From a virus (Duplodnaviria; Caudoviricetes), in IMG/VR virus record IMGVR_UViG_2816332589_000001, positions 32,001-96,000 of that record: DNA of 64,000 bases; one strand, written 5' to 3'. Position 1 is the stretch's first letter; each line of letters begins with the position of its first letter. The notes below the pieces were generated by a model that was given only the letters and a program-made list of their open reading frames with translations, was not told the origin of the DNA and made no database searches. A program made the position numbers and the translations under genes. Below, piece after piece: positions 32,227 through 60,930 of the stretch.

Positions 32227-32352
32227 GGATGACCGTCCTCCTGGCTGGCTTGGAGCGTTGACCCGCCCGCGGCTTGCTCGTACCGGGGCATGGTGCGTCG
32301 CGGCGAGGGGCAACATCCTCGCCCGGACACGGTTGTCAGTTTACCACTGTGG

Positions 32353-32790
32353 TCACTCGTCCGGGCAGGTGAAGAGGCCCGTCACCGGTGCCTCCTTCTC
32401 GGGGTCCAGCAGAGCATCGGCGTGCCTGCGATACCAGGCGTCCAAGGCGCGGGCGGCCTCCGGCGCCCCGGACTCGGCGTCCGGGTCGGCGGCCTGTCGC
32501 TCCGCCCACTGCCTGGTACCGGCCTCGAACTCGGCCTGCACGGAATCCTCGTCGCGGCAAAGCGCAGCGGCCAGCTCCGACCACGGCGTCCCAGCCAGCG
32601 CCTCCGCCCGTACGGTCCACTGGAGTACCTGAAGGGAGAGCAGCCGCAGCCGGCGGGCAGCCAGGATGCGGTCGGCGGCCGTGCCCTCTCCCGAGATCTC
32701 TCCGACGATGCCGCGCGCGAAGTCGGCGACCTCCCGTGCGTGCTCGGCCGTGATGAGCCGCGCCTGGGCGGCCTGCTGGGGACAGTCCAT
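32353..32790 (-). CDS. Hypothetical protein, possible HTH (GTPWSELAAAL)
   Basis: AAGGA RBS; 145 aa. Confidence 0.6.
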   Translation of the reverse strand: MDCPQQAAQARLITAEHAREVADFARGIVGEISGEGTAADRILAARRLRLLSLQVLQWTVRAEALAGTPWSELAAALCRDEDSVQAEFEAGTRQWAERQAADPDAESGAPEAARALDAWYRRHADALLDPEKEAPVTGLFTCPDE

Positions 32791-32874
32791 GAAGCGGGTC
32801 CTTCGGGTGCCGAAACGACAACGGCGGGCGCCCCGAGGATACGGGGCACCCGCCGTGGCGGTGGTGAGACGGGG

Positions 32875-34125
32875 TCAGCCCGCGCTGACCAGCTCACGTT
32901 GGTCGGCCATCTTCGACGCCCGGTACTCCTCGTACCAGCGCTCGAACTTCGGCTTCACGTTGGCCCGACCGGACGCGTCGGACCGGCCGAGCCTGCGGCC
33001 CAGGTTGCTGCCGCAGAACGGCCCGCCGTCCTTCACCAGCGGGTCCTGCTCCCAGTCCTCGTACTCGCTCGCGTCCCGGGCCGCGCGATAGAGCTCGAAC
33101 AGGGCCTGCTCCGCCTCGCCCTTGGTCATCCCGGCGAACTCATCGCTCATCACCACGGACTCCACGACCCGCGCCGGCCGCTTGACCGTCTTCGCGCTCG
33201 CCGCCGCCCGGGGCTGCGCCGGGACGGCGGCCGCGGCCTCCTGGCGCTGTCGCTCAAGGCGCTGGGCCTCCTCGCGGTGCGCCCGCGCCTCCTGCTCCGC
33301 CTTCTCCCGGCGCTCCCGGTCGGCTCGCTCCTCCTGGCGGATGCGCTCAGCGAGTTCACGCTCGGCCCGCTCCCGCTCGATACGGGCGTTGTATTCGCGG
33401 CGTGCCTTCTCCTCATCCAGGCGAGCCTGCCGATCAGCCTCCTCGCGGGCGGTGCGCTCCTTCTCCAGGGCGAGAGCGTGCTCGCGCTCCTCCCGCAGAC
33501 GGGTCTCCTCACGCTCCGCACGCTCGCGCTCCAGCTTCGCGGCGTGCTCCCGCGCCTGCCGTTCGGCCTGCTCCTTCGCGGCCCGTGCCTGCTCGCGTTC
33601 TTCCCGCTGCCGCTGCTCTCGGGCTTCTTCCTCGGCCCGCCGGCGCTCATCCGCCGCGGCCTGATCGGCAGCGATCCGGGCCAGGGCAGCGCTGATCGCG
33701 CGCCGGTACGACAGGCCGGCCTCCGCGGTGACGATCAGCAGGAGTGGCGCGGCGGAGTGAACGGCCATGCCCACCCAGTCGTGACGCAGCGCGCTGTCAC
33801 CGACGTTGAGGGCGAGGGTCATCAGGCCAGTCATCCACCGCAGAAGCACGGGCCAGGCGCCGCCCTCGCCGCCGAGGCGGGAGATGACGGAGTCCAGCTT
33901 GACCACGATGATCACCGCGGCGTCCACGACGAGCGGCAGGATGGGCGCCGTCCACTCCCAGCCTGACGGGCTGACCGACCGGACGAGTGGGGTAACGGTG
34001 AGCACGCTGAAGAGCAGGGCCCCGGCCGTGATCGCCCAGGTCCCCGCCTTCAGAGTGCGTTCAGCCGAGCGGATCTCCGCCTCGGACATGGCGGCGTAGC
34101 GCGCCGTGGAAAGGGGTCGGGCCAC
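32875..34125 (-). CDS. Spd/DUF2637-like membrane protein with coiled coil and C-terminal HTH-like region
   Basis: Four hydrophobic helices (LPLVVDAA, LALNV, HSAAPLLL) followed by an E/R-rich coil; AGGAGG RBS. Confidence 0.72.
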   Translation of the reverse strand: MARPLSTARYAAMSEAEIRSAERTLKAGTWAITAGALLFSVLTVTPLVRSVSPSGWEWTAPILPLVVDAAVIIVVKLDSVISRLGGEGGAWPVLLRWMTGLMTLALNVGDSALRHDWVGMAVHSAAPLLLIVTAEAGLSYRRAISAALARIAADQAAADERRRAEEEAREQRQREEREQARAAKEQAERQAREHAAKLERERAEREETRLREEREHALALEKERTAREEADRQARLDEEKARREYNARIERERAERELAERIRQEERADRERREKAEQEARAHREEAQRLERQRQEAAAAVPAQPRAAASAKTVKRPARVVESVVMSDEFAGMTKGEAEQALFELYRAARDASEYEDWEQDPLVKDGGPFCGSNLGRRLGRSDASGRANVKPKFERWYEEYRASKMADQRELVSAG

Positions 34126-34251
34126 TGTGCTGTCCTCCTGGAGCGTCCCGAGGTGCGCTCTCGCTCGTGAGCGCTCGGTCGCGGACAGCCTAGATCATCT
34201 CCGAGGCCGCAGACCTGCCCCTTCCCCGCTAACACGCCAAAGGCGCACCAT

Positions 34252-35058
34252 CTACCACATTTGGGGCTTTCGCCGGTCGTTGCCGACCATGCGCAAGACC
34301 ACGGCCCGCTGCCCGACGCGAGATGCCAAGCGGTCACCGAGGACCGCCGCGACCTGGTCGAAGCTCAGGTTCGTGGTGAACAGCGTGGCCCGCCCGCTGT
34401 TGAGCCGTGCGGTGATCAGGTTTGAGGTGTGGGTGCGGACGTGATTCGTGGCGTACTCGTCCATCTCGTTACACAGGTCGTCCAGGATGAGCAGGTCGCA
34501 CCGTTCGTACCGCTCGCGCACGGAGACCGGCGTCAGACCGGCGGGCGCGTTGTTCGGCTGGAGCCACGACAGGTACATCGAGTGCGACACGAACCGCGCC
34601 ATCAGGCCGCATTCGACAGCGAAGGCGCCCGCCGCGGCGGCGGCCACCGTCTTGCCCGATCCGACGCTGCCGTGGGCGATCAGGTGCTGGATGCTGGGCC
34701 GGGCTATGTTGCGCTGCGCCTCCGGCACCTTGAGCTGGTCGCGGTTGTGCTGCCGGGTCTTGGCGAGCTCTTCGACGTACCGGCGCAGATGGTCGGGGAA
34801 CTGCTCCCCATCCAGGGCGGGCAGCCGGTACCGGGCGTAGTCTCCGTGCCCCGACAAGGCCAGGGAGTTCACCCACGCCTGCCGGAACACGTCGCGCTGG
34901 TACTCGTCGGTGCTGTCTGACCGGTCTTCGGGGTGGTCGGCCCTGGCCGGGTCCAGGCCGCGGCGCCGCAGCATCTCCGCGACGGCCGCGACGGGGTCGC
35001 CGGCGCGTACGACCTTCCGGCCTTCCGGTATCGCCGGGGCAGGCATGGTGAGGGACAT
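34252..35058 (-). CDS. DnaC/IstB-like AAA+ helicase loader
   Basis: GSVGSGKT, LLILDDL, TLFTTNL, LGDRLASR, GNDRR. Confidence 0.88.
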   Translation of the reverse strand: MSLTMPAPAIPEGRKVVRAGDPVAAVAEMLRRRGLDPARADHPEDRSDSTDEYQRDVFRQAWVNSLALSGHGDYARYRLPALDGEQFPDHLRRYVEELAKTRQHNRDQLKVPEAQRNIARPSIQHLIAHGSVGSGKTVAAAAAGAFAVECGLMARFVSHSMYLSWLQPNNAPAGLTPVSVRERYERCDLLILDDLCNEMDEYATNHVRTHTSNLITARLNSGRATLFTTNLSFDQVAAVLGDRLASRVGQRAVVLRMVGNDRRKPQMW

Positions 35059-35089
35059 CTCGTCGTTCCTCCTCTCGTCGGCCGACTGC

Positions 35090-36337
35090 TCAGGCGGCGT
35101 CATCGGACTCGACACCGAACACGTCGAGGTCGGGCGCGGCCGGGGCCGGCGCGGCGGACTGGGTGCCGCCTGAATCGCCCTGCATCCACTGGTCGTTGGT
35201 GAAGATCGGGGCGCGCCCGCTAGAGCCGGAACGCGGGGCGCGGACGCCTGACAGGCGTCGCAGCTCCTTGTCCAGCGCCCACTTCGTCGGTGTCCAGTCG
35301 CCGATGTTGCCCAGGGCCTGCCAGATGAGCCTGGAGTCGTAGCCTGCTGCCAGGGCCGTACGGATGCGGGTGCGCAGGTTGAGGAAGTAGCCGGTCCGCT
35401 GCCGTTCGGTGTCCGCCATCAGGGGGCCCATCCGCTTGGCGGCCACCAGCTTCTCCGCTTCCTCCCACCACTTGGTGGCGCCCTTCTGCGCCTGCTTGTC
35501 GAGTGCGATGTCCTCGGGCGTCTTGTCCTTCAAACGCTTGAGCATCCGTTCGAACTTGGCCTTCGCCGGGCCCCACTCGCCGATCTCCCGGAGCACCAGC
35601 TTGATCAGTTCCACGTCGTGGCCGGCGGCCATGGCGTCGTGGATGCGTGTGACCAGGTTGGTTCGGGCGCGCTCCCTCTGCTGCTCGGTGACGAGCGGGT
35701 GCAGATGGCCCTGATCGGTCAGGTCCTGCGCCTGCGCCCACCACTCCTCGGCGACCGTACGGGCAGCAGCCTCGACAGCGGTCTCCTGCGGCGGAGCCGC
35801 GGGTGCAGGCTGCCCCGACTTGGTATCGGTATCGGGTTCTGCTGCTTCCTGGACCTTTACCTTGCGGGGACGGCCAGGACCGCGGGAGAGCTTCTGCGCC
35901 TCTTCCTCACGGCGGTGCTTGTAGTGCTCTCCGACGTTGGTCTCGCCCTCGAAGCCAGCGGGCGGCATCTGGTGGACGAGGTAGCGGATGCCCTTGGCGC
36001 CGTTGGGCCGGGTCATCGGCTCGCGGTCGATGGCGTCGGCGTCGTCAAGCTGGTCTAGGTACTGATCGACGGACTGCTCACGGGAGAAGCCGAGGATGCG
36101 CGCAATGGTCTTGCGGGAAGGCCAGCACGAACTGTCGCCACTGGCGACGTTCACGTGCATCGCCAGCACGTTGTAGACGGCCTTCGCCTGCGGAGCCAGG
36201 ATCTTCCCCCGGTACATCGGGTGGGACTTACTGCCCGGGTACAGCGTCACCCAGTCCGGGATCATGGAGAACGGCGCTTTGCGGCCGACCACAACCTCGA
36301 ACTGCTCGTCCAGCTCGTCCATCTCGTGGCTGGTCAC
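35090..36337 (-). CDS. Phage replication initiator (N-terminal wHTH)
   Basis: FSMIPDWV...CWPSRKTIARILG wHTH pattern; upstream of the DnaC-like gene; internally duplicated C-terminal domain. Confidence 0.78.
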   Translation of the reverse strand: MTSHEMDELDEQFEVVVGRKAPFSMIPDWVTLYPGSKSHPMYRGKILAPQAKAVYNVLAMHVNVASGDSSCWPSRKTIARILGFSREQSVDQYLDQLDDADAIDREPMTRPNGAKGIRYLVHQMPPAGFEGETNVGEHYKHRREEEAQKLSRGPGRPRKVKVQEAAEPDTDTKSGQPAPAAPPQETAVEAAARTVAEEWWAQAQDLTDQGHLHPLVTEQQRERARTNLVTRIHDAMAAGHDVELIKLVLREIGEWGPAKAKFERMLKRLKDKTPEDIALDKQAQKGATKWWEEAEKLVAAKRMGPLMADTERQRTGYFLNLRTRIRTALAAGYDSRLIWQALGNIGDWTPTKWALDKELRRLSGVRAPRSGSSGRAPIFTNDQWMQGDSGGTQSAAPAPAAPDLDVFGVESDDAA

Positions 36338-36657
36338 TGGCCCGCTCCTTCCTGAGCATCGTGCGGAGCAAGGCGGTAGGAGATCAAACGGCGGTCTTGG
36401 CGGTCGATGCGGCGCGGTTGTGCGGTCCGTTCTACGAGACCGGTGCGGACGAGCAGCGTGAGCGCCGAGCGGGCCTGATGGTGGGTCATGCCGGCGGAGG
36501 CGGCGAAGTCGTCAGTGTGGTGCCAGTCGCACACGTCGAGGTCACGCCGACGCAGATGCCGTACGAACGCGGTGAGGACCGTCGGGCTGATCCGCCGGGC
36601 GCCGACGAGGTCGGTCGCCTGGTCGATCAGCGCCAAACGGGTGTCGCTGGGGATCAC
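36334..36657 (-). CDS. Small winged-helix protein
   Basis: FAASAGMTHHQARSALTLLVRTGLVER. Confidence 0.65.
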   Translation of the reverse strand: MIPSDTRLALIDQATDLVGARRISPTVLTAFVRHLRRRDLDVCDWHHTDDFAASAGMTHHQARSALTLLVRTGLVERTAQPRRIDRQDRRLISYRLAPHDAQEGAGQ

Positions 36658-36720
36658 GAAGCTTCCTTGCGGGAGGTGCCCACCCCCGTCGAAGCAGGGG
36701 TGGGCAGGACGTGCGGACGA

Positions 36721-37044
36721 TCACGCGGCGGGGGCGAAACCCCGGACCTTTGCCTTGTGCTCGGCGGCCTTGCGTATGGGCCCGTAGTCGATGGCCCTGG
36801 CCTTGCCGAGCGACCTCTCTTTGACCAGCGCCTTGCGCTCGACCTCGGTAAGGCCGCCCATCACGCCGAACTCGACGCGGCTGGCCGGGGCGAGCGCGTA
36901 CTCCAGGCAGCGGTCCTGGACCGGGCACCGCGCGCACAGCCCCTTGGCGAACTCCGTCTTCTTGACCGCGCCCGAGTCCGGGAACATGGCCTCCGGGTCA
37001 GTGCGCGCGCACAGCGCGTCGAGCATGAAGTCGGGAACGCTCAT
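36721..37044 (-). CDS. whiB: WhiB-family Fe-S transcription regulator
   Basis: Four conserved Cys (C...CARC.....C) and the GVMGG turn. Confidence 0.9.
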   Translation of the reverse strand: MSVPDFMLDALCARTDPEAMFPDSGAVKKTEFAKGLCARCPVQDRCLEYALAPASRVEFGVMGGLTEVERKALVKERSLGKARAIDYGPIRKAAEHKAKVRGFAPAA

Positions 37045-38279: not shown

Positions 38280-38845
38280 TCGCCTGCCTCCAGCTCCGGC
38301 AGGGCGAAGGACTCTGCCGTCAGTTCGGGCAGGTTCTCCAGGGCCCGGTCGAGGAAGCCGAGCATGTCGTCCAGTGCCTCTTTGCCCTGGGTGTTCCACT
38401 TGGGGCTGATGCTGGTGGGCTCACCGCCCGGCTCGTAGCCGATGCCGGGAACCACTTCGCCGGTGGTGGCGTCAACGACCGTGTTCGTCTTCGCGATGTA
38501 CCGCAGGTGGCTCATCAGCGCTTCGAGGTAGGCCGGGCGAATGACGTACTGCGTCTCGCCCTTCTCGTCCGCGTAGTCGAGGAGCGCCTTCTCGTCCTCA
38601 ACGACGAACTTCGGCTTTGACACGCCCTGGGTGAACGTGGTCAGCGGCATAGAGTCCCCGGAAGGCAGGGGCAGCTTCGCCGCTGTGCTGCGCACACCCT
38701 TGGTGGACTCGATGTACGCGGCGTTCTCCCTGATCACCGCATCGCAGATGTCGGCGACGCGGGCCTTCACGCGGTAGGCCACCGCAGCCCTGAGCGCCAA
38801 GTCGCCGACACTCACGGCGTTGGGTGCGTTGTCCGTCTCGGGCAT
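38276..38845 (-). CDS. Hypothetical protein, possibly Mu Gam-like
   Basis: GAGAGG RBS; KFVVEDEKALL...VVDATTGEVVPGI. Confidence 0.6.
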   Translation of the reverse strand: MPETDNAPNAVSVGDLALRAAVAYRVKARVADICDAVIRENAAYIESTKGVRSTAAKLPLPSGDSMPLTTFTQGVSKPKFVVEDEKALLDYADEKGETQYVIRPAYLEALMSHLRYIAKTNTVVDATTGEVVPGIGYEPGGEPTSISPKWNTQGKEALDDMLGFLDRALENLPELTAESFALPELEAGE

Positions 38846-39296
38846 CGCTGGATACCTCTCTGGTTCTGCCGGTTTCCCGGCTTGGAGCGTGAAGGTCTGC
38901 TGCTGGTGGCCTTCCGTCGCTATGGACGGAGTGAGGCCGAAATCCGTTACACCAGACCCGGTGTGGCTGCTCGCTCGTGCGGCCACAGATCGGAACTGTA
39001 CACCACGTCCGTTCGGGTTGGGTGGACCCCGCGACGGAACTGCCCGCGGCGTGTCTTCATGCACTCGGCCCGTACGGCGAACGGCGGAACGCGCACCCGC
39101 TGAACCGACCCGCCGGGCCCCGGCACCGCCCCGTCCGGACACGTGGGGCGACGCCGGCCGAGGAGCGGCCGATCCGGTCCGGCCATGACGGCACGTCCCG
39201 GTAGCGAGCCGGGACGCCGCGGTTGAAGTCCGCGGGCTCGCTGACCGCCGGCCGCTCCTCACCCCGCCCGTCGAGCTGCGCGACCAGGAGCAGCCC

Positions 39297-39932: not shown

Positions 39933-39959
39933 CCCCAGAGACGATCTACGGTCCCCGCC

Positions 39960-43637: not shown

Positions 43638-44017
43638 TGATTGCGGTCCGGAGCGTTCTGTCGCAGCCGGGCTGCGATGCTCGCGGCGATGCCTTCGAGG
43701 CGCGCATCGTCAATGCCCTCGATGTCGGCGACGGCAAGGCGCATACCCGGGCCGGCCTTGGCCTCCCGGGTATGGATGCCGGGGTCAGCGAGGTCTTCGG
43801 CGTGGTCGGCGCTGCTTTGGGGGCGGGCGCGGCGGTCGGCCTCGCGCATCATCGCGTCGAATGCGCGTGAGCGTGCGCTTTCGCTGATGGCGGGAGTGGA
43901 CCGGAGAGCGTTCGCGGCCATCACCATGCTGGTGATCTCCGGGTTTTCAGGTTCGGCGTCGCCGGACAGGCAGCGGTCAAGCTGCACTGCTGCGGCGCTA
44001 TCCCTTCGACCCAGCAT
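43634..44017 (-). CDS. Putative anti-sigma factor
   Basis: Overlaps the 3' end of the sigma gene; short helical protein. Confidence 0.5.
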   Translation of the reverse strand: MLGRRDSAAAVQLDRCLSGDAEPENPEITSMVMAANALRSTPAISESARSRAFDAMMREADRRARPQSSADHAEDLADPGIHTREAKAGPGMRLAVADIEGIDDARLEGIAASIAARLRQNAPDRNQ

Positions 44018-44717
44018 CGTTCTTCTCCCTCAGCATCACTGGCGTGGCACGGCCATCGTCCCGCGGTCCGTCCGCGGCAGACAGCAGGTACGCCGCCAAG
44101 GTGCTGTCGCGCTCTGGCATGAGAGTGCGCAGCCGGGCGAGCGCACGGTACTGCAACACGCGAATCGTACCTACTGGCTTGCCCATAATTTCCGCCGTCT
44201 CAGCGGTTGTATGCCCAGACGTGATGCGAAGAGCCAGGACAAGCTGCTGGTCGTCCGACAGTTTGTCCAGCTTTCTCCGGATGGCTTCCCCCAGCTCGTT
44301 CCACTCGGCTCTCTCCTCGGGGCCCATCTCGGTGCTCGGGTAGTCGAGCTGCCAGAAGTCGCTGGTCGGCTTCTCGAAACCCCTGTTGCGCATCGGCCGG
44401 AAATAGTCGTTGTAGACGTTGCGGGCGATCGCGAAGACCCACGCCCGGATGCCGTGGCCGTCGTAGCTGTCGATCTTCTGCACGACCTTGACGAACGTCT
44501 CCTGGGCCAAGTCCTCGGCGGTGGAGGGGTCTTGGATGCGCGCGTTCATGAAGCGAACGATCGGCTCGTACATGACGCCGAAGACCTCAGCGAGTGCCGC
44601 CTTGTTGCTCGGGTCCTTGGCAGCGCGGGCCGCGGCGGCTTCCAGGGGGCTCCCGAACTCGCCGTCGCACGACGTGGTTTTGCTCGCGCTGGGCGTGCTG
44701 GGCATGTACCGCCTCAC
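43998..44717 (-). CDS. ECF sigma-70 factor (BldN-like)
   Basis: Region 2 TAEDLAQETF...AWVFAIARN; region 4 AETAEIMGKPVGTIRVLQYRAL. Confidence 0.9.
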   Translation of the reverse strand: MRRYMPSTPSASKTTSCDGEFGSPLEAAAARAAKDPSNKAALAEVFGVMYEPIVRFMNARIQDPSTAEDLAQETFVKVVQKIDSYDGHGIRAWVFAIARNVYNDYFRPMRNRGFEKPTSDFWQLDYPSTEMGPEERAEWNELGEAIRRKLDKLSDDQQLVLALRITSGHTTAETAEIMGKPVGTIRVLQYRALARLRTLMPERDSTLAAYLLSAADGPRDDGRATPVMLREKNDAGSKG

Positions 44718-45094
44718 TCCGCTCTTGATCGGCCTCGGAACGACATCTTCCGACAGGGGCGAACGCGTGCGCTACTACCAAATCGCACGTGAGATCGAAA
44801 AAGTTGCGGTTGCCTCAAAAGCCCGGAATGCGACAAGTTGATCAGGTTGCTCCTGCTTACAGGTCGGGCAAACCGGGTCAGACCGTCCGTGCTGCACGCT
44901 CGTTGAACGCCGTACGGGCACAGTGCCCGTTGCCGAACCGTTACCGAGGCTCGGCCGTGTCGCACACCTTTCCCAAATCCGCCTGCTCATGCGCACCCGG
45001 TGCGCCTGGCTGACGCGGGACGTGGTGTGCACTAAGGTGTGTGGCCATCGCCCGGGGACGAGCAACCCGGCATCAACCAGTGAAGGGAGCGGCC

Positions 45095-45331
45095 GTGGAC
45101 CAGGCCCGCTTGGCAGACCGGATAAACCGGCTCCCGTACGAGCAATGGCTGCCCGCCGACGAGAGCGCCGGGATCATCGGTGTGTCCGCGCCCGAGGCGG
45201 CCAAGTTGCTGCGCGCCGGCCGCCGACACGGAATGCTGACCGTGCGCCGTGTGGACGACGGCCGCCTGCTGTTCATGCGCATCCGCCGGCGCCCTACCAC
45301 CAGGATCATCCGCACCGGTGTATCGGCATGA
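45095..45331 (+). CDS. Small winged-helix protein
   Basis: GGGAG RBS; ESAGIIGVSAPEAAKLLR. Confidence 0.6.
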   Translation: MDQARLADRINRLPYEQWLPADESAGIIGVSAPEAAKLLRAGRRHGMLTVRRVDDGRLLFMRIRRRPTTRIIRTGVSA

Positions 45332-50388: not shown

Positions 50389-50402
50389 ACGAATAAGGCT
50401 CC

Positions 50403-53188: not shown

Positions 53189-53357
53189 CCCGACTCGGTC
53201 GCGCCCGGCCCCCGCGGGGGTGGGGCCAGGCGCGCCCGTACAACACGAAGACGGGTCCGCGTTGTCGTCGGTGCTTGCTATGGTGGATCGTCTCAACCAT
53301 GGGATGCACATGCAGGGCTGATCCGCGGACGCTGAGGAAGCTCCTAGGAAGCGTCGA

Positions 53358-53506: not shown

Positions 53507-53545
53507 GGGCGAAGTCCGGGGCCATCAAGCCGTCTACAGCAAGCG

Positions 53546-53992: not shown

Positions 53993-54006
53993 CGGGTCGG
54001 TGTAGC

Positions 54007-54429
54007 TCAGGCAGATGTCTGCGGGCCGCACGGCGCATCCTCTCCGTCGCGCTGGGGTTCTTCCGCACCTTCGGTGGTCTCGGGAGCGGAATCGTTCCTG
54101 CTGTCGGCGAGGAGCTGCTTCACGAGCCGGATCGGCACGCCAGTGGCCAGGGCGATATCGCCCAGCGTTGCCCGCCGCAGGGCCAGGGCCCTTACCGCCT
54201 CGGCCAGGGCCGCTGTACGGGCGTCCTCCGCGGCCCGCAGCTGCTCCAGCTCCGGCGTCGTCGGGACGATCGTGACTTCGGCGGTCACGTCGAGGAGTGC
54301 AAGCCCCTCCTCGACGTTCTTGCGCAGCGCCTTCAGCGTCCGCCCGTGCCCGTAGACCCCGTACTCGGGGACGCGCGTCGTCCAGCCCCGGCCGCGCCGG
54401 TCGGCCCGGCACTCGATGGTCTCGCTCAC
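54007..54429 (-). CDS. HicB-like antitoxin
   Basis: WTTRVPEYGVYGHGRTLKALRKNVEEGL plus C-terminal HTH (TLGDIALATGV); coupled to the recombinase stop. Confidence 0.7.
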   Translation of the reverse strand: MSETIECRADRRGRGWTTRVPEYGVYGHGRTLKALRKNVEEGLALLDVTAEVTIVPTTPELEQLRAAEDARTAALAEAVRALALRRATLGDIALATGVPIRLVKQLLADSRNDSAPETTEGAEEPQRDGEDAPCGPQTSA

Positions 54430-55640
54430 GCTCCGCTCTCCATGTCCTCGATGACCTGCTGCACGACCAGGTCCGGGATGGGGGTGGGCAGGACGATCTG
54501 CCGGCCACCGATCCGGTACAGCGTGTGCCCCCCGCTGCTGCGCACGGACGTGACGGTGAGTCCGTGCCGGCGGGCCGCGGCGCGGATACGCAGCAGCGGC
54601 CCGCCTTCCTCCGCCCCCGCGCGCAGGCTCGCGGTGACCTCTTGGGCCGCCTTCCACTCCTCCACGGTGACCACCGCCTCGTGCACGGGCCGCGGCGACC
54701 ACACCCATTGCGAGACCGGGTTGTACTTGGAGAAACCGGGGCGGCCGGTGCGGGTCGCCCGACGGTTGTACACCTGGTAGCCGGTGAGTTTCGGGTTGGC
54801 GATCAGGCTTTCCACGCGGTTCCATGTCCACCGGTCCTCGATCGGGTACCGGTCGGGCTCCGCCTCCAGGATCGCGGCGATGTCTGAGCCCGTCAGGTGC
54901 TCCTCGCGCCGCAGCCGACACAGGGTCCGGGCCGCGTCGAACCGGCGCTCGTCGGGATGCCGGGCCAGCTTCTTCTTCGGCCGGACCACGCCGAACCGGC
55001 CGTCCCGTACGGGGGCGTTCTCATCGACCACCGCGATGTACGGGTAGGGCGGGTAGCCGTGGTTCCAGCCGTTGATGGCGTGCTGGATCTGGCCGCCCAT
55101 CGACATCTCCATCAGCGTGGCCCGGTAGACCTCGGCATCGACCTGGCCGTACCGGCGAACGCGCAGCCGGCCGGACTCGGTGCCGCCCGTCGGCTCGTTG
55201 GCGTAGACGACCTCCACGCCGATCTTGCTCAGCTCGTGTTCCACGGTGAGGCTGGTCAGCATGTGGCGTGCCACCCGGTCGGAGCGCTCGGCCAGGACGT
55301 GGGTGACACCGAGCTGCTCGACCCGGTCCGCGAGGTCCTGGAAGCCGCCGTCGCGCGGGGTCGGCACGGCGAGCGCGTCGTACATCTCCTGCGGCGCGAG
55401 GCCCCGCAGCTCCGGGGGCAGCATCCCGGACTCGACATCCCAGAAGTACGCGACGAACTCCTCGCCGGGCTCCAGACGCGCGGAAGCGAGGGAGACCTGC
55501 CTCGGGATGGAGGTGGCCGGGTTCTGGTTGTCCTTGGTGCTGACCCTGCCGAGGAACGCCGAGCGGCGGGGGCGGGAGTCGGCCGGCTCGAAGGCGGGCA
55601 TGTCGGTGAGGTCGATGGGCGGCCCGAATGGATTGGTCAC
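54426..55640 (-). CDS. Serine recombinase (catalytic plus recombinase domains) with a C-terminal HicA-like domain
   Basis: GRVST..Q, DVESG, SDRVAR, GYPPY.Y, NPKLTG, HEAVV..EEW; tail VRSSGGHTLYRIGGRQIVLP. Confidence 0.82.
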   Translation of the reverse strand: MTNPFGPPIDLTDMPAFEPADSRPRRSAFLGRVSTKDNQNPATSIPRQVSLASARLEPGEEFVAYFWDVESGMLPPELRGLAPQEMYDALAVPTPRDGGFQDLADRVEQLGVTHVLAERSDRVARHMLTSLTVEHELSKIGVEVVYANEPTGGTESGRLRVRRYGQVDAEVYRATLMEMSMGGQIQHAINGWNHGYPPYPYIAVVDENAPVRDGRFGVVRPKKKLARHPDERRFDAARTLCRLRREEHLTGSDIAAILEAEPDRYPIEDRWTWNRVESLIANPKLTGYQVYNRRATRTGRPGFSKYNPVSQWVWSPRPVHEAVVTVEEWKAAQEVTASLRAGAEEGGPLLRIRAAARRHGLTVTSVRSSGGHTLYRIGGRQIVLPTPIPDLVVQQVIEDMESGA

Positions 55641-55734
55641 GGCATTCCTATGGAATGAAGGCCCGGTTGGGCGGTGAACGGTAGGAAGGTGGTGTGGCCT
55701 CGGAGCCCGGGGCCTGGTCGCCCCGGGGCCGGTG

Positions 55735-56682
55735 TCAGCGCTGGAGGGCGGCGGCCTGCTTCCACCACATCTCGCGCAGCGCGGCGTAATCGCGGGCCTG
55801 CGCGCACAGCCCGCGGTGCTCGCCCATGCCTCCCGACAGAGGCGTGTGCAGGTGCGGGATGACCGGGCGCAGCAGCTCGGCGTAGTCCTGGCCACCGAGA
55901 AAGATCACGTCGGCGTCGTACGTACCGAGGTCGAAGACCTGCTCAGCGAGCCGCTCGGGCGTGATGGCCTGCGGGTCGCCGATCGTCACGTCGTACGGGA
56001 GCAGCGGGCGCTCCAGGTCCACCAGGCCGTGCCGCGCGGACAGAATCCGGATGAGCGAGGCGTCGGTCAGGGCGTCGGCAGCCAGCCGCAGGGACCGGTG
56101 ATACTGCCCGGTGTACAGCTCCCCCGCCGGGTAGCCCGGGTTGGCGTTCCCGTACTCGTTGTACCCGGGGTGCGGTGCCTTTTCCTGGCCGCACGCGATG
56201 ATCACGATGCGGCGGCGGTGCACGTCGATGCCGCCGCGCTGCCGGGCGTACGTCCGGCCGGCCGGGGTGAGATACAGGGAATAGCCGTGCTGGCCGAAAG
56301 ACGTGGCGTAACCAGCGGCCTGGACGGCGCGGAGGGTGGGGGCGCGGAACCACCTTGCTCCTTCCCAGTACGCGCGGTCGTCCCGGCCGGGTACGAGCTG
56401 ATCGGGACGACCGGCGGCCGTCACGATCGCCTCGTGCTGCACCGCGGGCAGCTTGGGCAGGAACGACTCGACCGCCGGTGCTGGAGCGGGGCCGTGCTGC
56501 TGCCGCCAGTGGTCCAGGGCCGCCCGTCCGGCCTCGGTCATGCGGTGGGTGCCGCCGTCGCCGGCGTGCCGGACGACCAGGCCGTCGGCCTCCAGCCGGG
56601 CGATGGCCGCGGCGTGGCCGGACACCACACCGTCGTCGTGGGCGTCGAGGATCTTTGCGCCCGTGGGGCTGAGCAGGCTCAT
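55735..56682 (-). CDS. DUF6884-like domain protein
   Basis: IIACGQEK...AGELYTG...ILSARHGLV...PYD. Confidence 0.7.
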   Translation of the reverse strand: MSLLSPTGAKILDAHDDGVVSGHAAAIARLEADGLVVRHAGDGGTHRMTEAGRAALDHWRQQHGPAPAPAVESFLPKLPAVQHEAIVTAAGRPDQLVPGRDDRAYWEGARWFRAPTLRAVQAAGYATSFGQHGYSLYLTPAGRTYARQRGGIDVHRRRIVIIACGQEKAPHPGYNEYGNANPGYPAGELYTGQYHRSLRLAADALTDASLIRILSARHGLVDLERPLLPYDVTIGDPQAITPERLAEQVFDLGTYDADVIFLGGQDYAELLRPVIPHLHTPLSGGMGEHRGLCAQARDYAALREMWWKQAAALQR

Positions 56683-56737
56683 GGAAGGTTCCTTTCGGCC
56701 CGGCCGGACGGTTCCGGCCGGGCGGTGAGCGGGTTGG

Positions 56738-57178
56738 TCAAGCGGTGCGGGAGTCGGGGTGCCGGTCCTCCCACGTCCAGGTGCGGCGGGCGGGGCCGCG
56801 GCCGGTGGCGTACCGGGCGGTCATGACGGCGTCCGTCTCGCACACCGAGGGCAGGCCGATGAGTTCGCGGGCGATGTGCTCGGCGAAGTCGTGGCGGACG
56901 CCGGCGCGCGGGTCGAGGCCGCGGACGGCCGCCCATGCGGCGCGGTCCACCTCCAGGCGCCAGCCGAGCGCCATGCGCACCCGCCCGTCACGCACGGAGA
57001 GCCGGGTCGGGCCGTAGCCGTACGCCCACCCCTCGGCCTCGGCCAGGGCCTTGATATCGGTGATGGAGGCGGTGACGTAGCCGATCAGCTCCCGGGGGAC
57101 CTCGGCCGCGTCGTACCCGTTGTCGTCGGCGAAGGAGTGCACGCCGACGTTCCACCACGTCTCAAGGCGGGTGATCAC
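56738..57178 (-). CDS. Hypothetical protein
   Basis: GTGA coupling with the upstream gene. Confidence 0.6.
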   Translation of the reverse strand: MITRLETWWNVGVHSFADDNGYDAAEVPRELIGYVTASITDIKALAEAEGWAYGYGPTRLSVRDGRVRMALGWRLEVDRAAWAAVRGLDPRAGVRHDFAEHIARELIGLPSVCETDAVMTARYATGRGPARRTWTWEDRHPDSRTA

Positions 57179-57387
57179 GGTTCGCCGCCGAAGCACTCGC
57201 CGCAGGTCGCGCGCGGCTCCTCGGCGTGATCCGGGCAGACCTCCGCGACCGTGTAGGGGGTGTTCCCGTCGTCGGCGTCGGTCAGGGCGTCGGCTACGGT
57301 CTGCGCTTCGCGGTGGCCAGCGTCGCCGTAGAACGGGCCATCGACCATCGCCGTGCCGTGTTCGAACACGCCGTACTCGGCGCTCAT
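57175..57387 (-). CDS. Small hypothetical protein (CxxH...CxxC)
   Basis: ATGA coupling with the upstream gene. Confidence 0.6.
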   Translation of the reverse strand: MSAEYGVFEHGTAMVDGPFYGDAGHREAQTVADALTDADDGNTPYTVAEVCPDHAEEPRATCGECFGGEP

Positions 57388-58160
57388 GCCGGCCGCCGGT
57401 AGCGGTTGCACTCGCGGTCGTGCTGCTGGTTGTGACGCTCCTGGGCGTAGCAGTCGCAGTGACGGGAGACCGGGCTGGTCACCCAGTCGGCGGCGAGCGC
57501 CGCGCACGCGGCGGAGTCCTCGGCGCAGTCCACCAGGTCGTCGCCGCCGTCGCCGCCGTACACCGGGTCGCCGATCGGCTCCCCGTGCTCATCGTGGAGG
57601 AGCATCGACCAGCCGGTGTGACGGCCCCGGAGGTGCCGTACGGACCCGTTCTGGTCGGCGATCGACAGGTGACCGTACACGCCGCGGCCGAGGTGTACGG
57701 GGATCTCGTAGGTGTCGCTGTGGGGGCCGTAGATGATGGACAGTCCGGCGCCGGGGACGATGCCGTACTCGGCGAGTGCGGCCAGCATGTCGGACCCGGC
57801 GGTGCATCCGTCCAGCCACTCGGCGACCGCCTTCGCGCACAGCGTGGCTTCTTCGGCCGCGGTCTCCCGCCGGTCGTGCGCGGTGTCGTGGAGCCGCTTG
57901 ACCTCCTGGAGCCCGTACGGGCCGCCCGGGGCCCATGCGTGCGCCTCGAAACCGGCCCACTCGAAGGGCCATTGGGCGTCGAACGCCTGCGAGGCGATCA
58001 TGGCGTGCTGGGTGCTGGTGAGGCTGTCGGGGTCGGTGTCCGGCAGGTAGGCAAGTACGGCTTCGTCGCGCTGGTCGTAGTGGGCGGCCAGGCTGGTGTT
58101 GCGCAGTGCGGTCAGCATCGCCTCGGCGGCCGGCGGCGTGACCTTGTCGAGGGTGGTCAT
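57384..58160 (-). CDS. Hypothetical protein
   Basis: 258 aa, good codon bias. Confidence 0.7.
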   Translation of the reverse strand: MTTLDKVTPPAAEAMLTALRNTSLAAHYDQRDEAVLAYLPDTDPDSLTSTQHAMIASQAFDAQWPFEWAGFEAHAWAPGGPYGLQEVKRLHDTAHDRRETAAEEATLCAKAVAEWLDGCTAGSDMLAALAEYGIVPGAGLSIIYGPHSDTYEIPVHLGRGVYGHLSIADQNGSVRHLRGRHTGWSMLLHDEHGEPIGDPVYGGDGGDDLVDCAEDSAACAALAADWVTSPVSRHCDCYAQERHNQQHDRECNRYRRPA

Positions 58161-58259
58161 GGAGAGTCTTTCGGTAGTCAGGAAGGAGATGGGCGGGAAC
58201 CGGGGTTCCGCACACCCCCGCCCGTGCCGGAGCGCGGGCGGGCAGTGCGGCGCTCCGGG

Positions 58260-59258
58260 TCAGCCCTGTACGCGCGGGATCTCGAAGGCGTCGATGGCGC
58301 GGGCGACGTACGCGCAGTCCTCGGCGAGCGTGGAGCCGACGGGCGCGGGGTCGAGCACGTCGATGCACTCGCCGTCCCCGTCGTAGGCGGAAGCGCTCCA
58401 CCGCTCGACGTGCTGAGAGGCGGGCCGGTCAACCTGCTCGTCGGAGATGATGCGGAAGTGCGGAACCTCGTACATGTCGGCCTCGGGCGTGCTGCGGTCG
58501 AGCGGTACGACGAGCCAGGTCTGTCCGCCTGCGCTGTCGCGGTAGGCAGGGAAGCCGTACGCGGCGAGAGCGGCGCGCAGAGCATCCCCGTCGGTGTGCG
58601 GGGGCGCGATGTCCGTGGGAGTCAGTTCCAGGCGCACGCCGGGCGCGGCGACGTACAGCCTGCCGTGGGGGTCGCGCAGCACGTAGCTCTGCTCCCGCTC
58701 GGACCACCGCATCAGCATCGCGCGGGCGCGGCTGCGGTTGACCGTGCCGTTGTGGAACTCCCGCCAGAAGAGGGCCGGGAAGCTGTGCGGGTCGGGGTGC
58801 AGCACGATCACCGTGTAGCCCGGGGCGGTCACTTCCTTGGGGCTGAAGTGCGGAAGTGGGGTCGCGAGCATCTGTATCGGCCCGTCCGTGCGCGGGTCCG
58901 GCCGGTCCAGCCACGCCCGTTCCAGCCGCGCGGACTCGTAGACGACCTCGGCGGCGGCGCTGAGCGCTGAGGCGTCCCGGTGCTCGCGAGCGAGCTGCAC
59001 GCACTCCGCGGCGAGCTGGGCGCGCCTGGCGTCCGCTTCCGGGGACGGCGGGAACAGCCATCTGCTCGCGATGAGCTTTCCCGCCTCGGTACGGGCGCGG
59101 TCGATGGCCTCGTTCAGGCGCTGCACGGTGTTCTTGGCGGTGCGGCGCTCCTTGCAGGCGGCGGCGATGGCGTCGTTGAGGCGGGTGCGTTCCAGCGCGC
59201 GCAGGGCCTGAGAGCGGGCGTGAGTGGGCAGGTGGGCGAGGTACTGAGGTGTGGTCAC
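58260..59258 (-). CDS. Hypothetical protein
   Basis: 332 aa; GGAG RBS. Confidence 0.7.
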   Translation of the reverse strand: MTTPQYLAHLPTHARSQALRALERTRLNDAIAAACKERRTAKNTVQRLNEAIDRARTEAGKLIASRWLFPPSPEADARRAQLAAECVQLAREHRDASALSAAAEVVYESARLERAWLDRPDPRTDGPIQMLATPLPHFSPKEVTAPGYTVIVLHPDPHSFPALFWREFHNGTVNRSRARAMLMRWSEREQSYVLRDPHGRLYVAAPGVRLELTPTDIAPPHTDGDALRAALAAYGFPAYRDSAGGQTWLVVPLDRSTPEADMYEVPHFRIISDEQVDRPASQHVERWSASAYDGDGECIDVLDPAPVGSTLAEDCAYVARAIDAFEIPRVQG

Positions 59259-59387
59259 GGCAGGCTCCGGGAGGTGGAGGGGAAGCGGGCCGGCTGGCGC
59301 GGCCGGTCGTGGTGAAGGGAAGGTGCAGGAGTGGCGCGGGGCCGCGGGGTGGGGAGGCGGCGGGCGCCTCCCCGGGGCGGGCGCGTG

Positions 59388-59849
59388 CTACCGGCCGCAC
59401 GCCTCGCACAGCACGGGACGCGGGGTGGCGGCGTACGCGGCCTGGACGTCCTCGGTCTCAGCGGCGGCCCACGCGCCGCGCTGCGCGGCCTCGTTGGCGG
59501 CGGCGTGCGCAGCGTCCATCACGGACGCGTGCGTGGTGACCTCGACCGCGTCGCTGTGCATCGTGCGGTGACGCCACAGGATGCCGTCCGCGTCAATGGG
59601 GGCGAGCCCGGCGATCACGCAGCAGTGCGGGTTGGCCAGGAAGGCGCTGATGAGGAATTCGGTGCCGTCGGCGCGGTAGCCGAGGTGGGCCCAGACGGTG
59701 TACGGGCCGAGGTGGCGCAGCTCGGAGGTGGTGCGCTCTGCGCTCTCCGTCAGAGCCTTGGTGGCGGCCCACACCTGCTCTTCGATCACAAGCCAGGGCT
59801 TCTTGGTCTCGGTGCGGGCGGGACGCTTGCGGGTGCGGGTGCTGGGCAT
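59388..59849 (-). CDS. Hypothetical protein
   Basis: GGAGG RBS following the conserved leader. Confidence 0.7.
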   Translation of the reverse strand: MPSTRTRKRPARTETKKPWLVIEEQVWAATKALTESAERTTSELRHLGPYTVWAHLGYRADGTEFLISAFLANPHCCVIAGLAPIDADGILWRHRTMHSDAVEVTTHASVMDAAHAAANEAAQRGAWAAAETEDVQAAYAATPRPVLCEACGR

Positions 59850-59871
59850 GGCTGTGCCTCCGATGGTTGGT

Positions 59872-59937
59872 TGGGAGCGTTCGTTGGTCCCGCTCGCTCG
59901 TGCGGACCAACAAGGAAAACTGTACACCGTGTCCGGC
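59872..59937 (-). promoter_or_regulatory. Early promoter plus leader hairpin, copy A of a 66-bp direct repeat
   Basis: 63/66 identical to 60865-60930; GGTGTACAGT -10-like element followed by a hairpin with an ACGAGCGA loop. Confidence 0.75.
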
Positions 59938-60031
59938 GCGTGGGGGTAGGTCAGGCTCGGGATTTCCCGCTCCCGTGCTACCCCGCACCGGAGGGGGCCG
60001 GGCCGCCGCAGAAGGACGGCCCGGCGGGTGC

Positions 60032-60844
60032 TTACAGAGCGGCGGCGGCGCGGAGCTGGTTGTCCATCGAGCCCCACACCGTCAGGTTGACCGGCGCTTC
60101 CGTGTAGAGCAGGTGCAGGTCCACGTCCACCACGTTGTCCACGAACAGGCTCACGGTGGTCAGGCCGTACCCGTGCCGATCGTAGGTGTCCCCAGGGCGC
60201 AAGCCAGGAGCGGCGGCCCGCATCTGCTTGGCGAGCGGGCCGTAAACGGGGTGCTTGCGGCGCGGGTCGCGGTTGTCGGTGCGGATGGCGCGCAGCACCG
60301 TACGGGCCTGTTCGACCGTCAGACGCCGGAAGACGATGTGGGATGCGGCGTACTCGGGGGTGTCGTCCAGGTAGTCGCCGCGCGTGATCTTCGTGCTGTG
60401 CTCGACCTCGGCGTAGCTGCCGGGGACCTCCCAGGTGGTGAGCGCTTCGCCGTGGTACCAGCGAGTGCGTGCGTGGTCGGGGGCGACGCAGGCGAACTTG
60501 GCGGCTATCAGCCGGGTGCGGCTGACCTTGGCGTGCGCTTCTTCCAGGTCACCGGTGACGAGTTCGGCGAGCGTGCGCCCGATGGCGTCGGCGGTCAAGG
60601 TGTCTGCGGTGGCGGACACCTTCCGGCGGGTTCCGTCGTCCAGGAGTGCCACGGCGTACACCTCGTGGCCGCGGATACCGGCGAAGTGGATGTTGTGCCC
60701 GCGGTGGGAGCGCAGGGAGCCGCTCATGCCGTAGTACGCGGCGTGAATCATCCAGTCGCGGCCCAGGATGCTGCGCGCGGCGCCGAGGACAGTGGAAGCG
60801 GTGAAGGGCAGTTCGCGGGTGTCGGTGAGAATGGTTCGAGACAC
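60032..60844 (-). CDS. Hypothetical protein
   Basis: AAAGG RBS following the conserved leader. Confidence 0.7.
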   Translation of the reverse strand: MSRTILTDTRELPFTASTVLGAARSILGRDWMIHAAYYGMSGSLRSHRGHNIHFAGIRGHEVYAVALLDDGTRRKVSATADTLTADAIGRTLAELVTGDLEEAHAKVSRTRLIAAKFACVAPDHARTRWYHGEALTTWEVPGSYAEVEHSTKITRGDYLDDTPEYAASHIVFRRLTVEQARTVLRAIRTDNRDPRRKHPVYGPLAKQMRAAAPGLRPGDTYDRHGYGLTTVSLFVDNVVDVDLHLLYTEAPVNLTVWGSMDNQLRAAAAL

Positions 60845-60864
60845 GGGTGTGCCTTTCTGGTTGA

Positions 60865-60930
60865 TGGGAGCGTTCGTTGGTCCCGCTCGCTCGTGCGGAC
60901 CAACAAGGGAAACTGTACACCACGTCCGGC
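60865..60930 (-). promoter_or_regulatory. Early promoter plus leader hairpin, copy B
   Basis: Near-identical repeat of 59872-59937. Confidence 0.75.

What the first reader, a model, noticed from the sequence alone, without database searches (positions are those of the whole stretch)
32252..60930. Candidate cis-regulatory RNA: leader hairpin with a conserved ACGAGC(G/A)A loop and a downstream complementary ACGCTCC, before six early genes
Seen: six intergenic leaders carry the same 8-nt loop on the sense strand of the downstream gene. The loops are at 32274-32281 (ERF), 34161-34168 (Spd-like), 38971-38978 (head of the whiB/rep operon), 59894-59901 and 60887-60894 (all - strand), and 45058-45065 (+ strand). 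The flanking stems differ in sequence but still pair: GTTGGTCC/GGACCAAC, TGTGGC/GCCACA, GCGCTC/GAGCGC, CCGGG/CCCGG, and CGGT/GCCG plus GCCC/GGGC. Five copies have ACGCTCC between hairpin and RBS (32252, 34140, 38884, 59874, 60867), which is complementary to GAGC(G) in the loop. In three copies the hairpin starts 7 nt after TACAGT, the expected transcription start. Inference: a conserved loop on interchangeable stems indicates a structured RNA. It could be a pseudoknot, an antitermination site analogous to lambda nut boxB/boxA, or a translational operator coordinating early genes. I do not recognise it as a described family.
Basis: partly seen in the sequence, partly recalled or inferred. Interest (0 to 1): 0.88.

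Follow-up and report, generated by a model that had tools for sequence, protein, structure and literature searches.

The report
Repeated leader hairpin in Streptomyces phage-plasmid
A short hairpin with a fixed loop and a freely varying stem sits in front of about a dozen early genes of a Streptomyces phage-plasmid and its relatives, which marks an undescribed gene-control signal whose reader is still unknown.

Summary
The window is part of a 136.9-kb, 70% GC virus record related to Streptomyces phage Gilgamesh and to 125-138-kb Streptomyces plasmids.

- **Copies:** all six reported copies are exact. The whole genome holds 12, all on the sense strand just upstream of a start codon. An adjacent-window note of this scan had already flagged seven of them.
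- **Relatives:** related genomes carry about 9-10 strong copies each.
- **Covariation:** among 69 distinct copies picked by a sequence-only model, the four loop-closing pairs are 91.5% paired, and all four show two-sided changes. The loop and the CGCTCC box stay fixed.
- **Known families:** no Rfam family matches.
- **Pseudoknot:** the proposed loop/box pseudoknot gets no covariation support, and two sister lineages lack the box.
- **Loop classes:** the sister lineages keep the same leader design with other loops, ACAGCGAA in a plasmid and AGAGCAA in Gilgamesh. This points to a reader encoded by the element itself.

My best reading, at about 0.4, is an RNA operator next to the ribosome-binding site that controls translation or mRNA fate. 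A nut-like antitermination site is the main rival. No reader protein, transcription start or expression data could be obtained.

The parts
32224..32294 (-). Copy 1, leader of the ERF-family gene. Stem about 32261-32294 with one bulge, loop ACGAGCAA 32274-32281, box ACGCTCC 32252-32258, GGAGG, ATG at 32226.
34123..34192 (-). Copy 2, leader of a 416-aa gene of unknown function. TAGGCT lies 8 nt before the stem. Two-part stem CCGAG/CTCGG plus GCGCTC/GAGCGC, loop ACGAGCGA 34161-34168, box 34140-34146 abutting AGGAGG, GTG at 34125.
38843..39003 (-). Copy 3, long leader of a Gam-like 189-aa gene at the head of the operon that holds WhiB. GTGTACAGT 38995-39003, stem 38962-38987 with one C/A mismatch, loop 38971-38978. 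A self-folding insert of about 65 nt follows, then box 38884-38890 and ATG at 38845.
45020..45097 (+). Copy 4, leader of a 78-aa gene divergent from the ECF-like sigma gene. CCGGG/CCCGG stem, loop GACGAGCAA (ACGAGCAA at 45058-45065), no CGCTCC box, GTG at 45095.
59847..59927 (-). Copy 5, leader of a 153-aa gene. GTGTACAGT 59919-59927, 7-nt spacer, 10-bp stem with a bulged G, loop 59894-59901, box 59874-59880, C/A-rich spacer, GGAGG, ATG at 59849.
60842..60920 (-). Copy 6, leader of a 270-aa gene. Nearly identical to copy 5 from the promoter to the box, so probably a recent duplicate. GTGTACAGT 60912-60920, loop 60887-60894, box 60867-60873, GTG at 60844.

Best explanation
The element is a cis-acting RNA module in the 5' leaders of early and maintenance genes. 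It has four parts in order: a hairpin with a sequence-specific 8-nt loop (ACGAGCRA), a single-stranded CGCTCC box, a G-poor C/A-rich spacer, and the Shine-Dalgarno sequence. I propose that a factor encoded by the element itself reads the loop, and perhaps the box, on the mRNA. It would then set translation initiation and/or mRNA lifetime of about a dozen genes together.

Shown: the hairpin, its strand and position relative to genes, its repetition, and its lineage-specific loop.

Inferred: that it acts as RNA, that a protein reads it, and that the step controlled is translation or mRNA fate and not transcription elongation.
For: 1. The hairpin is selected for. In 69 distinct copies collected with a sequence-only model, the 4 closing pairs are 91.5% paired, against 23-48% when partners are slid. 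All 4 show two-sided changes, and 0 of 500 shuffles reach the score. The result is the same on 35 hand-picked copies.
2. The loop and box stay fixed while the stems change freely. This indicates sequence-specific reading of single-stranded bases.
3. 12 of 12 copies in the genome are on the sense strand of an ORF. Orientation flips four times along the genome, each time with the genes.
4. The module stays close to the ribosome-binding site. The box lies 13-25 nt from the start codon in 10 copies and 38 nt in copy 3.
5. In the copy-3 type long leader, a lineage-specific part sits next to the Shine-Dalgarno sequence in both classes compared: the box here, and the hairpin in plasmid NZ_CP108441.1.
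6. Only 24 of 50 family instances have a TANNNT 4-12 nt before the stem. The rest lie between genes of one operon, so the function is not tied to initiation. One of the 50 looks like a chance match.
7. Three lineages keep the same layout with different loops: ACGAGCRA here, ACAGCGAA in 7 of 10 occurrences in NZ_CP108441.1, and AGAGCAA in 5 of 8 occurrences in Gilgamesh. The other classes' words are at chance level in each genome. This fits co-evolution with an element-encoded reader.
8. In 20 whole Streptomyces genomes carrying relatives, 40 hits were found in 7 genomes. 30 of them lie on the capsid-bearing plasmid-size contig, 10 on small contigs of fragmented assemblies, and none on a contig identifiable as chromosomal.
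Against: - No reader was found. The one candidate is a 109-aa protein with an arginine-rich N-terminal helix, encoded behind copy 11. It has homologues in G001, G002 and NZ_CP108441.1 but none in G003, which has 9 strong copies of the same loop, nor in Gilgamesh (0 of 5 records). Its fold has no significant PDB match, and the weak hits are winged-helix DNA binders.
- None of the 28 element proteins scanned with Pfam shows an RNA-binding domain.
- Folding energy does not favour the sense strand: sense was more stable in 25 cases and antisense in 25. Strand is therefore inferred from context only.
- Transcription starts are not mapped, and no RNA run was listed.
- Many of the genes have ordinary, exposed Shine-Dalgarno sequences, so the need for an operator is not obvious.
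- The whole early region is exchanged as a block between lineages. Loop class therefore co-varies with many genes, not with one.
Confidence: 0.4

Rival explanations
1. A nut-like processive antitermination site. The nascent hairpin (boxB-like) and box (boxA-like) would load an element-encoded factor, possibly the 109-aa arginine-rich protein, onto RNA polymerase. The polymerase would then read through the GC-rich hairpins that follow most genes of the long early units.
For: - 24 of 50 instances, and 8 of 12 in this genome, sit directly after a promoter-like TANNNT, with the stem starting at the inferred +1.
- The layout is two-part: a hairpin and then a single-stranded box.
- By my reading of the folds, about 19 of 24 same-strand gaps in the 86-112 kb gene array hold a strong GC stem-loop just after the stop codon. 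Most downstream genes there have no promoter or leader of their own.
- The first gene of the rightward arm, behind copy 11, is a 109-aa protein with an arginine-rich N-terminal helix followed by such a hairpin. From recall, this resembles the pL-nutL-N layout of lambda.
- Lineage-specific loops parallel the N/boxB specificity classes of lambdoid phages (recalled).
Against: - The arginine-rich protein is undetected in G003 and Gilgamesh.
- The box differs or is absent between lineages. That does not fit a site for conserved host Nus factors.
- The post-gene hairpins lack U-tracts. The scan found 7 terminator-like sites against 5.1 expected.
- Purified mycobacterial RNA polymerase did not terminate at such hairpins (PMC3993855, abstract and passages read). 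They may therefore not be terminators at all.
- About half of the copies lie inside operons, immediately before a Shine-Dalgarno sequence.
- No NusG-type gene is present (0 of 5 records, while the control rang in 11 of 14 genomes).
Confidence: 0.25
2. A factor-independent leader. The hairpin would simply protect the mRNA 5' end against 5'-end-dependent RNases, or mark a processing site inside operons. The G-poor C/A-rich tract would keep the ribosome-binding site open. No dedicated reader would exist.
For: - In promoter-proximal copies the stem starts at the inferred first transcribed base, 5-8 nt after the -10-like hexamer.
- Stems are stable, at -11 to -33 kcal/mol.
- The spacers are C/A-rich in all three lineages.
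Against: - A purely structural role does not explain an invariant 8-nt loop and 6-nt box across 69 copies while the stems drift.
- It also does not explain why each lineage has its own loop word.
Confidence: 0.15
3. A DNA-level signal. One form: the loop and box are promoter or operator elements read by the element's ECF-like sigma factor or a repressor. The other form: the inverted repeat extrudes as a DNA hairpin promoter, in the manner recalled for phage N4.
For: - Loop-to-box spacing is narrow, 10-19 nt in the 50 instances, which resembles a promoter spacer.
- The loop and box carry the same 5-mer in inverted orientation.
- The element encodes an ECF-like sigma factor. Its allele tracks the loop class: 63% identity to G003, which has the same loop, against 33-34% to the two lineages with other loops.
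- The sites are asymmetric and co-oriented with transcription. Stoperators of cluster A mycobacteriophages, as I recall them, are similar.
Against: - Duplex DNA cannot read arms that keep pairing while changing sequence, so the covariation requires a single-stranded fold.
- The loop-box spacing is too variable for a dimer or a fixed spacer, and it is 87 nt in copy 3.
- The sister classes have no box.
- The sigma allele is only one of several early-region genes with the same identity pattern.
- No single-subunit RNA polymerase was looked for or seen.
Confidence: 0.1
4. An H-type pseudoknot, possibly ligand-sensing, formed by loop GAGCG pairing with box CGCTC.
For: - 5-nt complementarity is present in most copies, with 95.3% of cells paired.
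- The loop-box distance is roughly constant.
- In copy 3 the 65-nt insert folds on itself, which would bring the loop and box close together.
Against: - None of the 5 pairs covaries.
- 16 cells are unpaired with no compensation.
- The box is absent from copy 4 and from both sister lineages.
- A short linker next to 10-12-bp stems looks sterically unfavourable (inference).
- There is no Rfam riboswitch or ribozyme match.
Confidence: 0.05

Closest known systems
Lambda-type nut sites (boxA plus boxB hairpin) read by N proteins
   Same: Both have a promoter-proximal hairpin with a sequence-specific loop on an unconstrained stem, plus a nearby single-stranded box. Both have lineage-specific loops. 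A small arginine-rich protein is encoded just behind one copy in some genomes.
   Different: - The loop is 8 nt (7 and about 10 in the sister lineages), not a pentaloop.
- The order is hairpin then box, whereas in lambda, as I recall it, boxA comes first.
- There are about 12 copies per genome, half of them inside operons and all hugging a ribosome-binding site.
- The box is not conserved between lineages.
- The arginine-rich protein is missing from some motif-bearing genomes.
- No antitermination has been shown.
Start-associated sequences (SAS) and extended SAS of Cluster K mycobacteriophages (PMC3203893; abstract and passages read)
   Same: Both are actinophage repeats in 11-19 copies, in one orientation, in the non-structural half of the genome, tied to translation starts of a subset of genes. 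Both include an inverted-repeat part. In both the function is unknown and suspected to be translational, and the consensus differs between subclusters.
   Different: - SAS is a 13-bp word (GGGATAGGAGCCC) that contains the ribosome-binding site.
- ESAS has conserved 17-bp arms and a variable spacer. Here it is the reverse: the arms vary and covary, and the loop is conserved.
- There is no sequence similarity.
Stoperators of Cluster A mycobacteriophages
   Same: Both are many asymmetric sites in short intergenic spaces, co-oriented with transcription.
   Different: Stoperators are duplex DNA sites for the immunity repressor and need no flanking complementary arms. Here the arms covary.
LoaP (NusG paralogue) leader hairpins
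   Same: Both are small 5'-leader RNA hairpins read sequence-specifically by an elongation factor.
   Different: No NusG-family gene is present in this element or in four relatives.

Membership tests
Any Rfam 15 family | Covariance-model match | tested here: not met
   0 matches at gathering score over the 64-kb window. 0 matches at E<=1 over 1.4 kb holding copies 7, 11 and 12.
Lambda N / nut | boxB hairpin with a GNRA-like pentaloop | tested here: not met
   The loop is 8 nt, ACGAGCRA. The last four bases, GCRA, would fit a GNRA pattern, but two copies (GCAC, GCGG) break it.
Lambda N / nut | boxA bound by host NusB/NusE and conserved across phages of one host group | tested here: not met
   The CGCTCC box is absent from Gilgamesh and NZ_CP108441.1 leaders, although all hosts are Streptomyces. 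Likeness to lambda boxA is recalled only. Binding is not testable here.
Lambda N / nut | Small arginine-rich N-type protein encoded by the element | tested here: inconclusive
   A 109-aa protein with an arginine-rich helix at residues 3-24 exists. It is present in G000, G001, G002 and NZ_CP108441.1. There were 0 hits in G003, G005, G006, G007 and Gilgamesh.
Lambda N / nut | Downstream terminators that are read through | not testable with these tools
   GC hairpins follow about 19 of 24 genes in the array, but they lack U-tracts. No RNA data are available.
Cluster K SAS/ESAS | 13-bp SAS word at the ribosome-binding site; 17-bp conserved inverted arms with a variable spacer | tested here: not met
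   The sequence differs and the conservation pattern is opposite: a conserved loop with variable arms.
LoaP-type leader hairpin | Cognate NusG paralogue in the same element | tested here: not met
   PF02357 gave 0 hits in 5 records, while the control rang in 11 of 14 genomes.
H-type pseudoknot | Second helix supported by covariation or at least kept in all copies | tested here: not met
   0 of 5 pairs covary and 16 cells are uncompensated. The box is absent in copy 4 and in the sister lineages.
N4-type DNA hairpin promoter | Virion single-subunit RNA polymerase; transcription start downstream of the hairpin | not tested
   The giant 4,688-aa ORF's homologue is named a DEAD/DEAH helicase in a RefSeq plasmid. 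I did not search it for polymerase domains, and no transcription-start data exist.

The most novel reading that the evidence does not exclude
Streptomyces phage-plasmids run a lambda-like N/nut antitermination circuit built from unrelated parts. Each early promoter would be followed by a boxB-like hairpin whose loop word defines a specificity class (ACGAGCRA, ACAGCGAA or AGAGCAA). A small arginine-rich protein, encoded by the first gene behind one such leader, would read it and carry RNA polymerase through the U-less GC hairpins that follow nearly every early gene. If true, this would be the first such system in actinophages. It would also bear on whether U-less hairpins terminate transcription in actinobacteria.
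Probability: 0.15. Interest if true: 0.85.

Novelty: new variant of a known kind. Interest (0 to 1): 0.62.

Why it matters
This would be a new multi-copy cis-regulatory RNA motif. It has strong covariation support and defines a co-regulated set of early, recombination and maintenance genes in a family of about 130-kb Streptomyces phage-plasmids. Almost all of those genes are unannotated.

The three lineage-specific loop words form a natural specificity series. Swapping loops between lineages should show directly whether an element-encoded reader exists, and should help to find it.

The motif could also become an orthogonal expression-control part for Streptomyces engineering. In addition, it offers a handle on how these elements switch between plasmid maintenance and lytic growth.

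Tried and rejected
- **Expression data:** no RNA holder was listed for window 58200-62200.
- **Near-identical phage DNA:** there was no megablast hit. Protein-level searches then found Gilgamesh and the plasmids. The query I had taken for the capsid gene turned out to be a metallophosphoesterase.
- **Generic GAGCRA-in-hairpin scan:** 18 of 133 occurrences sat in hairpins, against 10-15 for control words. This is not specific enough, so I dropped it.
- **Strand from wobble pairs:** sense was more stable in 25 cases and antisense in 25, so this gave no information. An earlier, looser version of that script mixed in chance matches, and I did not use it.
- **Model R1 on Gilgamesh:** it found nothing. 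Reading the homologous leaders by eye showed a different loop.
- **Arginine-rich protein:**
  - No Pfam family.
  - No significant PDB fold match.
  - 89 remote representatives were found; the two long repeat-containing proteins among the ten I scanned matched known repeat families, so I take those two as spurious. The small proteins carry no Pfam family.
  - It is absent from G003 and Gilgamesh.
  - It therefore remains only a weak candidate.
- **Canonical promoter and terminator scan of the array:** 0 promoters, and 7 terminator-like sites against 5.1 expected.
- **Considered and set aside without a decisive test:** mimicry of a 16S rRNA segment or of an anticodon or T loop (a 6-mer likeness only, from recall); a guanidine-II-like ACGR loop (column 8 covaries with column 19, not with the loop; no Rfam hit); anti-Shine-Dalgarno pairing by the box (many copies have AAGGGA-type sites that it cannot pair with); a trans antisense RNA (no separate complementary hairpin among the occurrences).
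- **Literature:** searches for 'Gilgamesh' + 'Streptomyces phage' (0 papers), 'phage-plasmid' + 'Streptomyces' (59 papers, 12 listings seen), 'actinophage' + 'antitermination' (2 papers) and 'Streptomyces phage'/'stem-loop'/'early genes'/'leader' (42 papers, 12 listings seen) showed no description of this motif. Subscription-journal work on phiC31 early promoters and terminators, which I only recall, was not searchable. Supplements were not opened.

Full report
**What the window is.** The window is bases 32001-96000 of a 136,928-bp virus record with direct terminal repeats and 70% G+C.
- Protein searches place it beside Streptomyces phage Gilgamesh (129 kb, 77% identity in a metallophosphoesterase).
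- It also sits beside seven Streptomyces plasmids of 125-133 kb (74-90% identity). One of these is the circular plasmid NZ_CP108441.1, which carries portal, capsid, ParA/ParB and sigma-factor genes.
- The capsid protein finds relatives in 20 Streptomyces species genomes, mostly on contigs of 120-138 kb and twice inside megabase-sized contigs.
- It is therefore a member of a Streptomyces phage-plasmid family.
- Near the reported sites it encodes an ERF recombinase, an IstB-like ATPase, WhiB and an ECF-like sigma factor.

**The observation.**
- The two short words alone are not enriched, but the composite loop-N10-17-box occurs 4 times against 0.01 expected.
- Reading the whole genome raised the count from six to twelve.
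- All twelve lie on the sense strand of an ORF that begins shortly downstream.
- None lies in the structural-gene block.
- Copies 5 and 6 are near-identical and are probably recent duplicates. The other stems differ from one another.

**Anatomy.** Eight of the twelve copies follow a conserved promoter-like block, typically GGAC-N2-GGTGTACAGT.
- In relatives the hexamer varies as TACAGT, TACGAT, TACGTT, TACGCT or TACTAT, so the T-A-N-N-N-T positions are kept.
- The stem begins 5-8 nt later, at the inferred first transcribed base.
- The stem is 5-12 bp and often has a bulge below the top four or five pairs.
- The loop is ACGAGCRA.
- A box (A/C)CGCTCC follows 10-19 nt after the loop. Then come a G-poor C/A-rich spacer, the ribosome-binding site and the start codon. 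The box lies 13-25 nt from the start codon (38 nt in copy 3).
- Copy 4 has no box.
- In copy 3 the hairpin and box are 87 nt apart. The intervening sequence is predicted to fold on itself, which would keep them close in space.

**Relatives and covariation.** A pattern scan of IMG/VR with no stem requirement returned 65 loci.
- Matches in the roughly 8 related contigs had extended complementary arms. Unrelated chance matches mostly had only the forced closing pair.
- A covariance model (R1) found 10 strong hits in this genome and 9, 10 and 9 in three near-complete relatives. It found 2-6 in fragments.
- To avoid selecting on pairing, I built a sequence-only model (R2) and searched 478 kb of family DNA. 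This gave 79 matches, 69 of them distinct.
- On that alignment the four closing pairs are 91.5% paired, against 23-48% when slid. All four have two-sided changes (43 cells), and no shuffle of 500 reached the covariation score.
- The control's own description warns that relatedness can inflate such numbers. However, the stems here are visibly unrelated words, such as GGTCGTC/GACGGCC, GGGCGATC/GATTGCCC and GCCCCGGC/GCCGGGGC.
- The hairpin is therefore real. No Rfam family matches.

**The pseudoknot idea.** The loop's GAGCG and the box's CGCTC are complementary, but none of the five pairs ever covaries.
- 14 of 69 copies have A at the loop position that should pair with C, and two copies have CGCCCC. 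None of these is compensated.
- The two sister lineages have no such box.
- I conclude that the complementarity may be real in this lineage but is not the core of the element.

**Lineage-specific loops.** Gilgamesh gave no model hit, yet its homologous leaders have the same layout.
- They carry a -10-like TACTAT, a 7-nt spacer, a stem, the loop AGAGCAA, a C/A-rich tract ending in GAAGGA, and the start codon. There are five copies.
- Plasmid NZ_CP108441.1 also gave no hit but has seven to eight leaders with the loop ACAGCGAA and a CACAC-rich tract.
- In each genome the other two classes' words are at chance level in hairpins.
- All hosts are Streptomyces, so a conserved host machine is an unlikely sole reader. 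A reader encoded by the element and co-evolving with the loop fits better.
- In whole-genome scans of 20 host genomes, hits occurred only in 7. 30 of the 40 hits lay on the capsid-bearing contig, and the rest on small contigs of fragmented assemblies. Only the best 150 of about 17-22 thousand first-look candidates per genome were scored, so weak chromosomal copies could have been missed.

**Who reads it.** I found no answer.
- The gene behind copy 11 encodes a 109-aa protein with an arginine-rich N-terminal helix. This invites comparison with lambda N.
- It is conserved in G001 and G002. In NZ_CP108441.1 it is 42% identical, with a different arginine-rich stretch.
- It is undetected in G003, which uses the same loop, and in Gilgamesh. 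Its globular part resembles nothing solved at a significant level.
- A comparison of all predicted proteins with G003, the plasmid and Gilgamesh shows that the early region is exchanged as a block. The sigma factor, a DnaC-like ATPase and a 142-aa protein all track the loop class, at 63-84% identity to G003 against 33-50% to the others. Co-variation therefore cannot single out one gene.
- No NusG-type gene is present.

**Choosing a mechanism.** Two features point to the translation start region.
- Every copy sits tightly upstream of a ribosome-binding site, and about half lie inside operons with no promoter-like hexamer.
- In the long copy-3 type leader, the lineage-specific part next to the ribosome-binding site is kept, while the other part moves.

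Three features point to antitermination.
- Eight of twelve copies are promoter-proximal.
- The early units are long, with a GC hairpin after about 19 of 24 genes.
- The arginine-rich first gene fits that model.

Those hairpins lack U-tracts. Work on mycobacterial RNA polymerase found no termination at such structures in vitro (PMC3993855), which weakens the need for an antiterminator. I put the translational or mRNA-fate operator at 0.40, antitermination at 0.25, a reader-free stabilising leader at 0.15, a DNA-level signal at 0.10 and the pseudoknot switch at 0.05.

**Comparison and novelty.** The nearest concepts are lambda nut sites and the SAS/ESAS repeats of Cluster K mycobacteriophages (PMC3203893). 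The element fails the defining features of both. It is a new motif of a familiar general kind. Four literature searches and Rfam gave no prior description. Older subscription papers on phiC31 early regions could not be searched.

Noticed in passing
L006:4045-4374 (+), genome 100045-100374, outside the window: A 109-aa protein with an arginine-rich N-terminal helix (residues 3-24) is encoded directly behind leader copy 11 at the centre of the divergent gene array. It has no Pfam family and no significant PDB fold match. It is present in some motif-bearing relatives but not all.
   Followed up: partly
genome 86-112 kb (window about 54000-64000 and beyond, L006): About 19 of 24 same-strand intergenic gaps hold a strong GC-rich stem-loop right after the stop codon, with no U-tract. 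Most downstream genes have no promoter-like block of their own.
   Followed up: partly
L007:12637-14748 (-), genome 128637-130748: The ATG served by leader copy 9 opens only 22 codons before an in-frame stop, and the FtsK/SpoIIIE-like ORF then continues in the same frame. Relatives start with a similar MPR... peptide. This could be an upstream ORF, a nonsense change or a sequencing error.
   Followed up: no
window 43998-44705 (-) and 45095-45331 (+): An ECF-like sigma factor gene lies divergent from a conserved 78-aa gene that carries a hairpin-only leader (copy 4). The same pairing occurs in Gilgamesh (genes 92 and 93) and in NZ_CP108441.1. The sigma allele tracks the loop class.
   Followed up: partly
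window 1-3395 (genome 21329-35395, +): This is the end of a giant ORF of about 4,688 aa. Its homologue in a RefSeq plasmid is named a DEAD/DEAH helicase family protein (5,399 aa). It lies directly after the portal gene.
   Followed up: no
window 9796-10929 (+): A metallophosphoesterase (Mre11-like by the names of phage hits) sits inside the head-gene block, two genes after the major capsid gene. It is conserved at 74-90% across the family.
   Followed up: no
L119 and L123 (Gilgamesh); L121 and L122 (NZ_CP108441.1): The sister lineages carry the same leader layout with other loop words: AGAGCAA in 5 copies and ACAGCGAA in 7-8 copies. Neither has the CGCTCC box. Three genomes with 85-87% capsid identity (G012, G013, G027) gave no model hit and may hold further classes.
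   Followed up: partly
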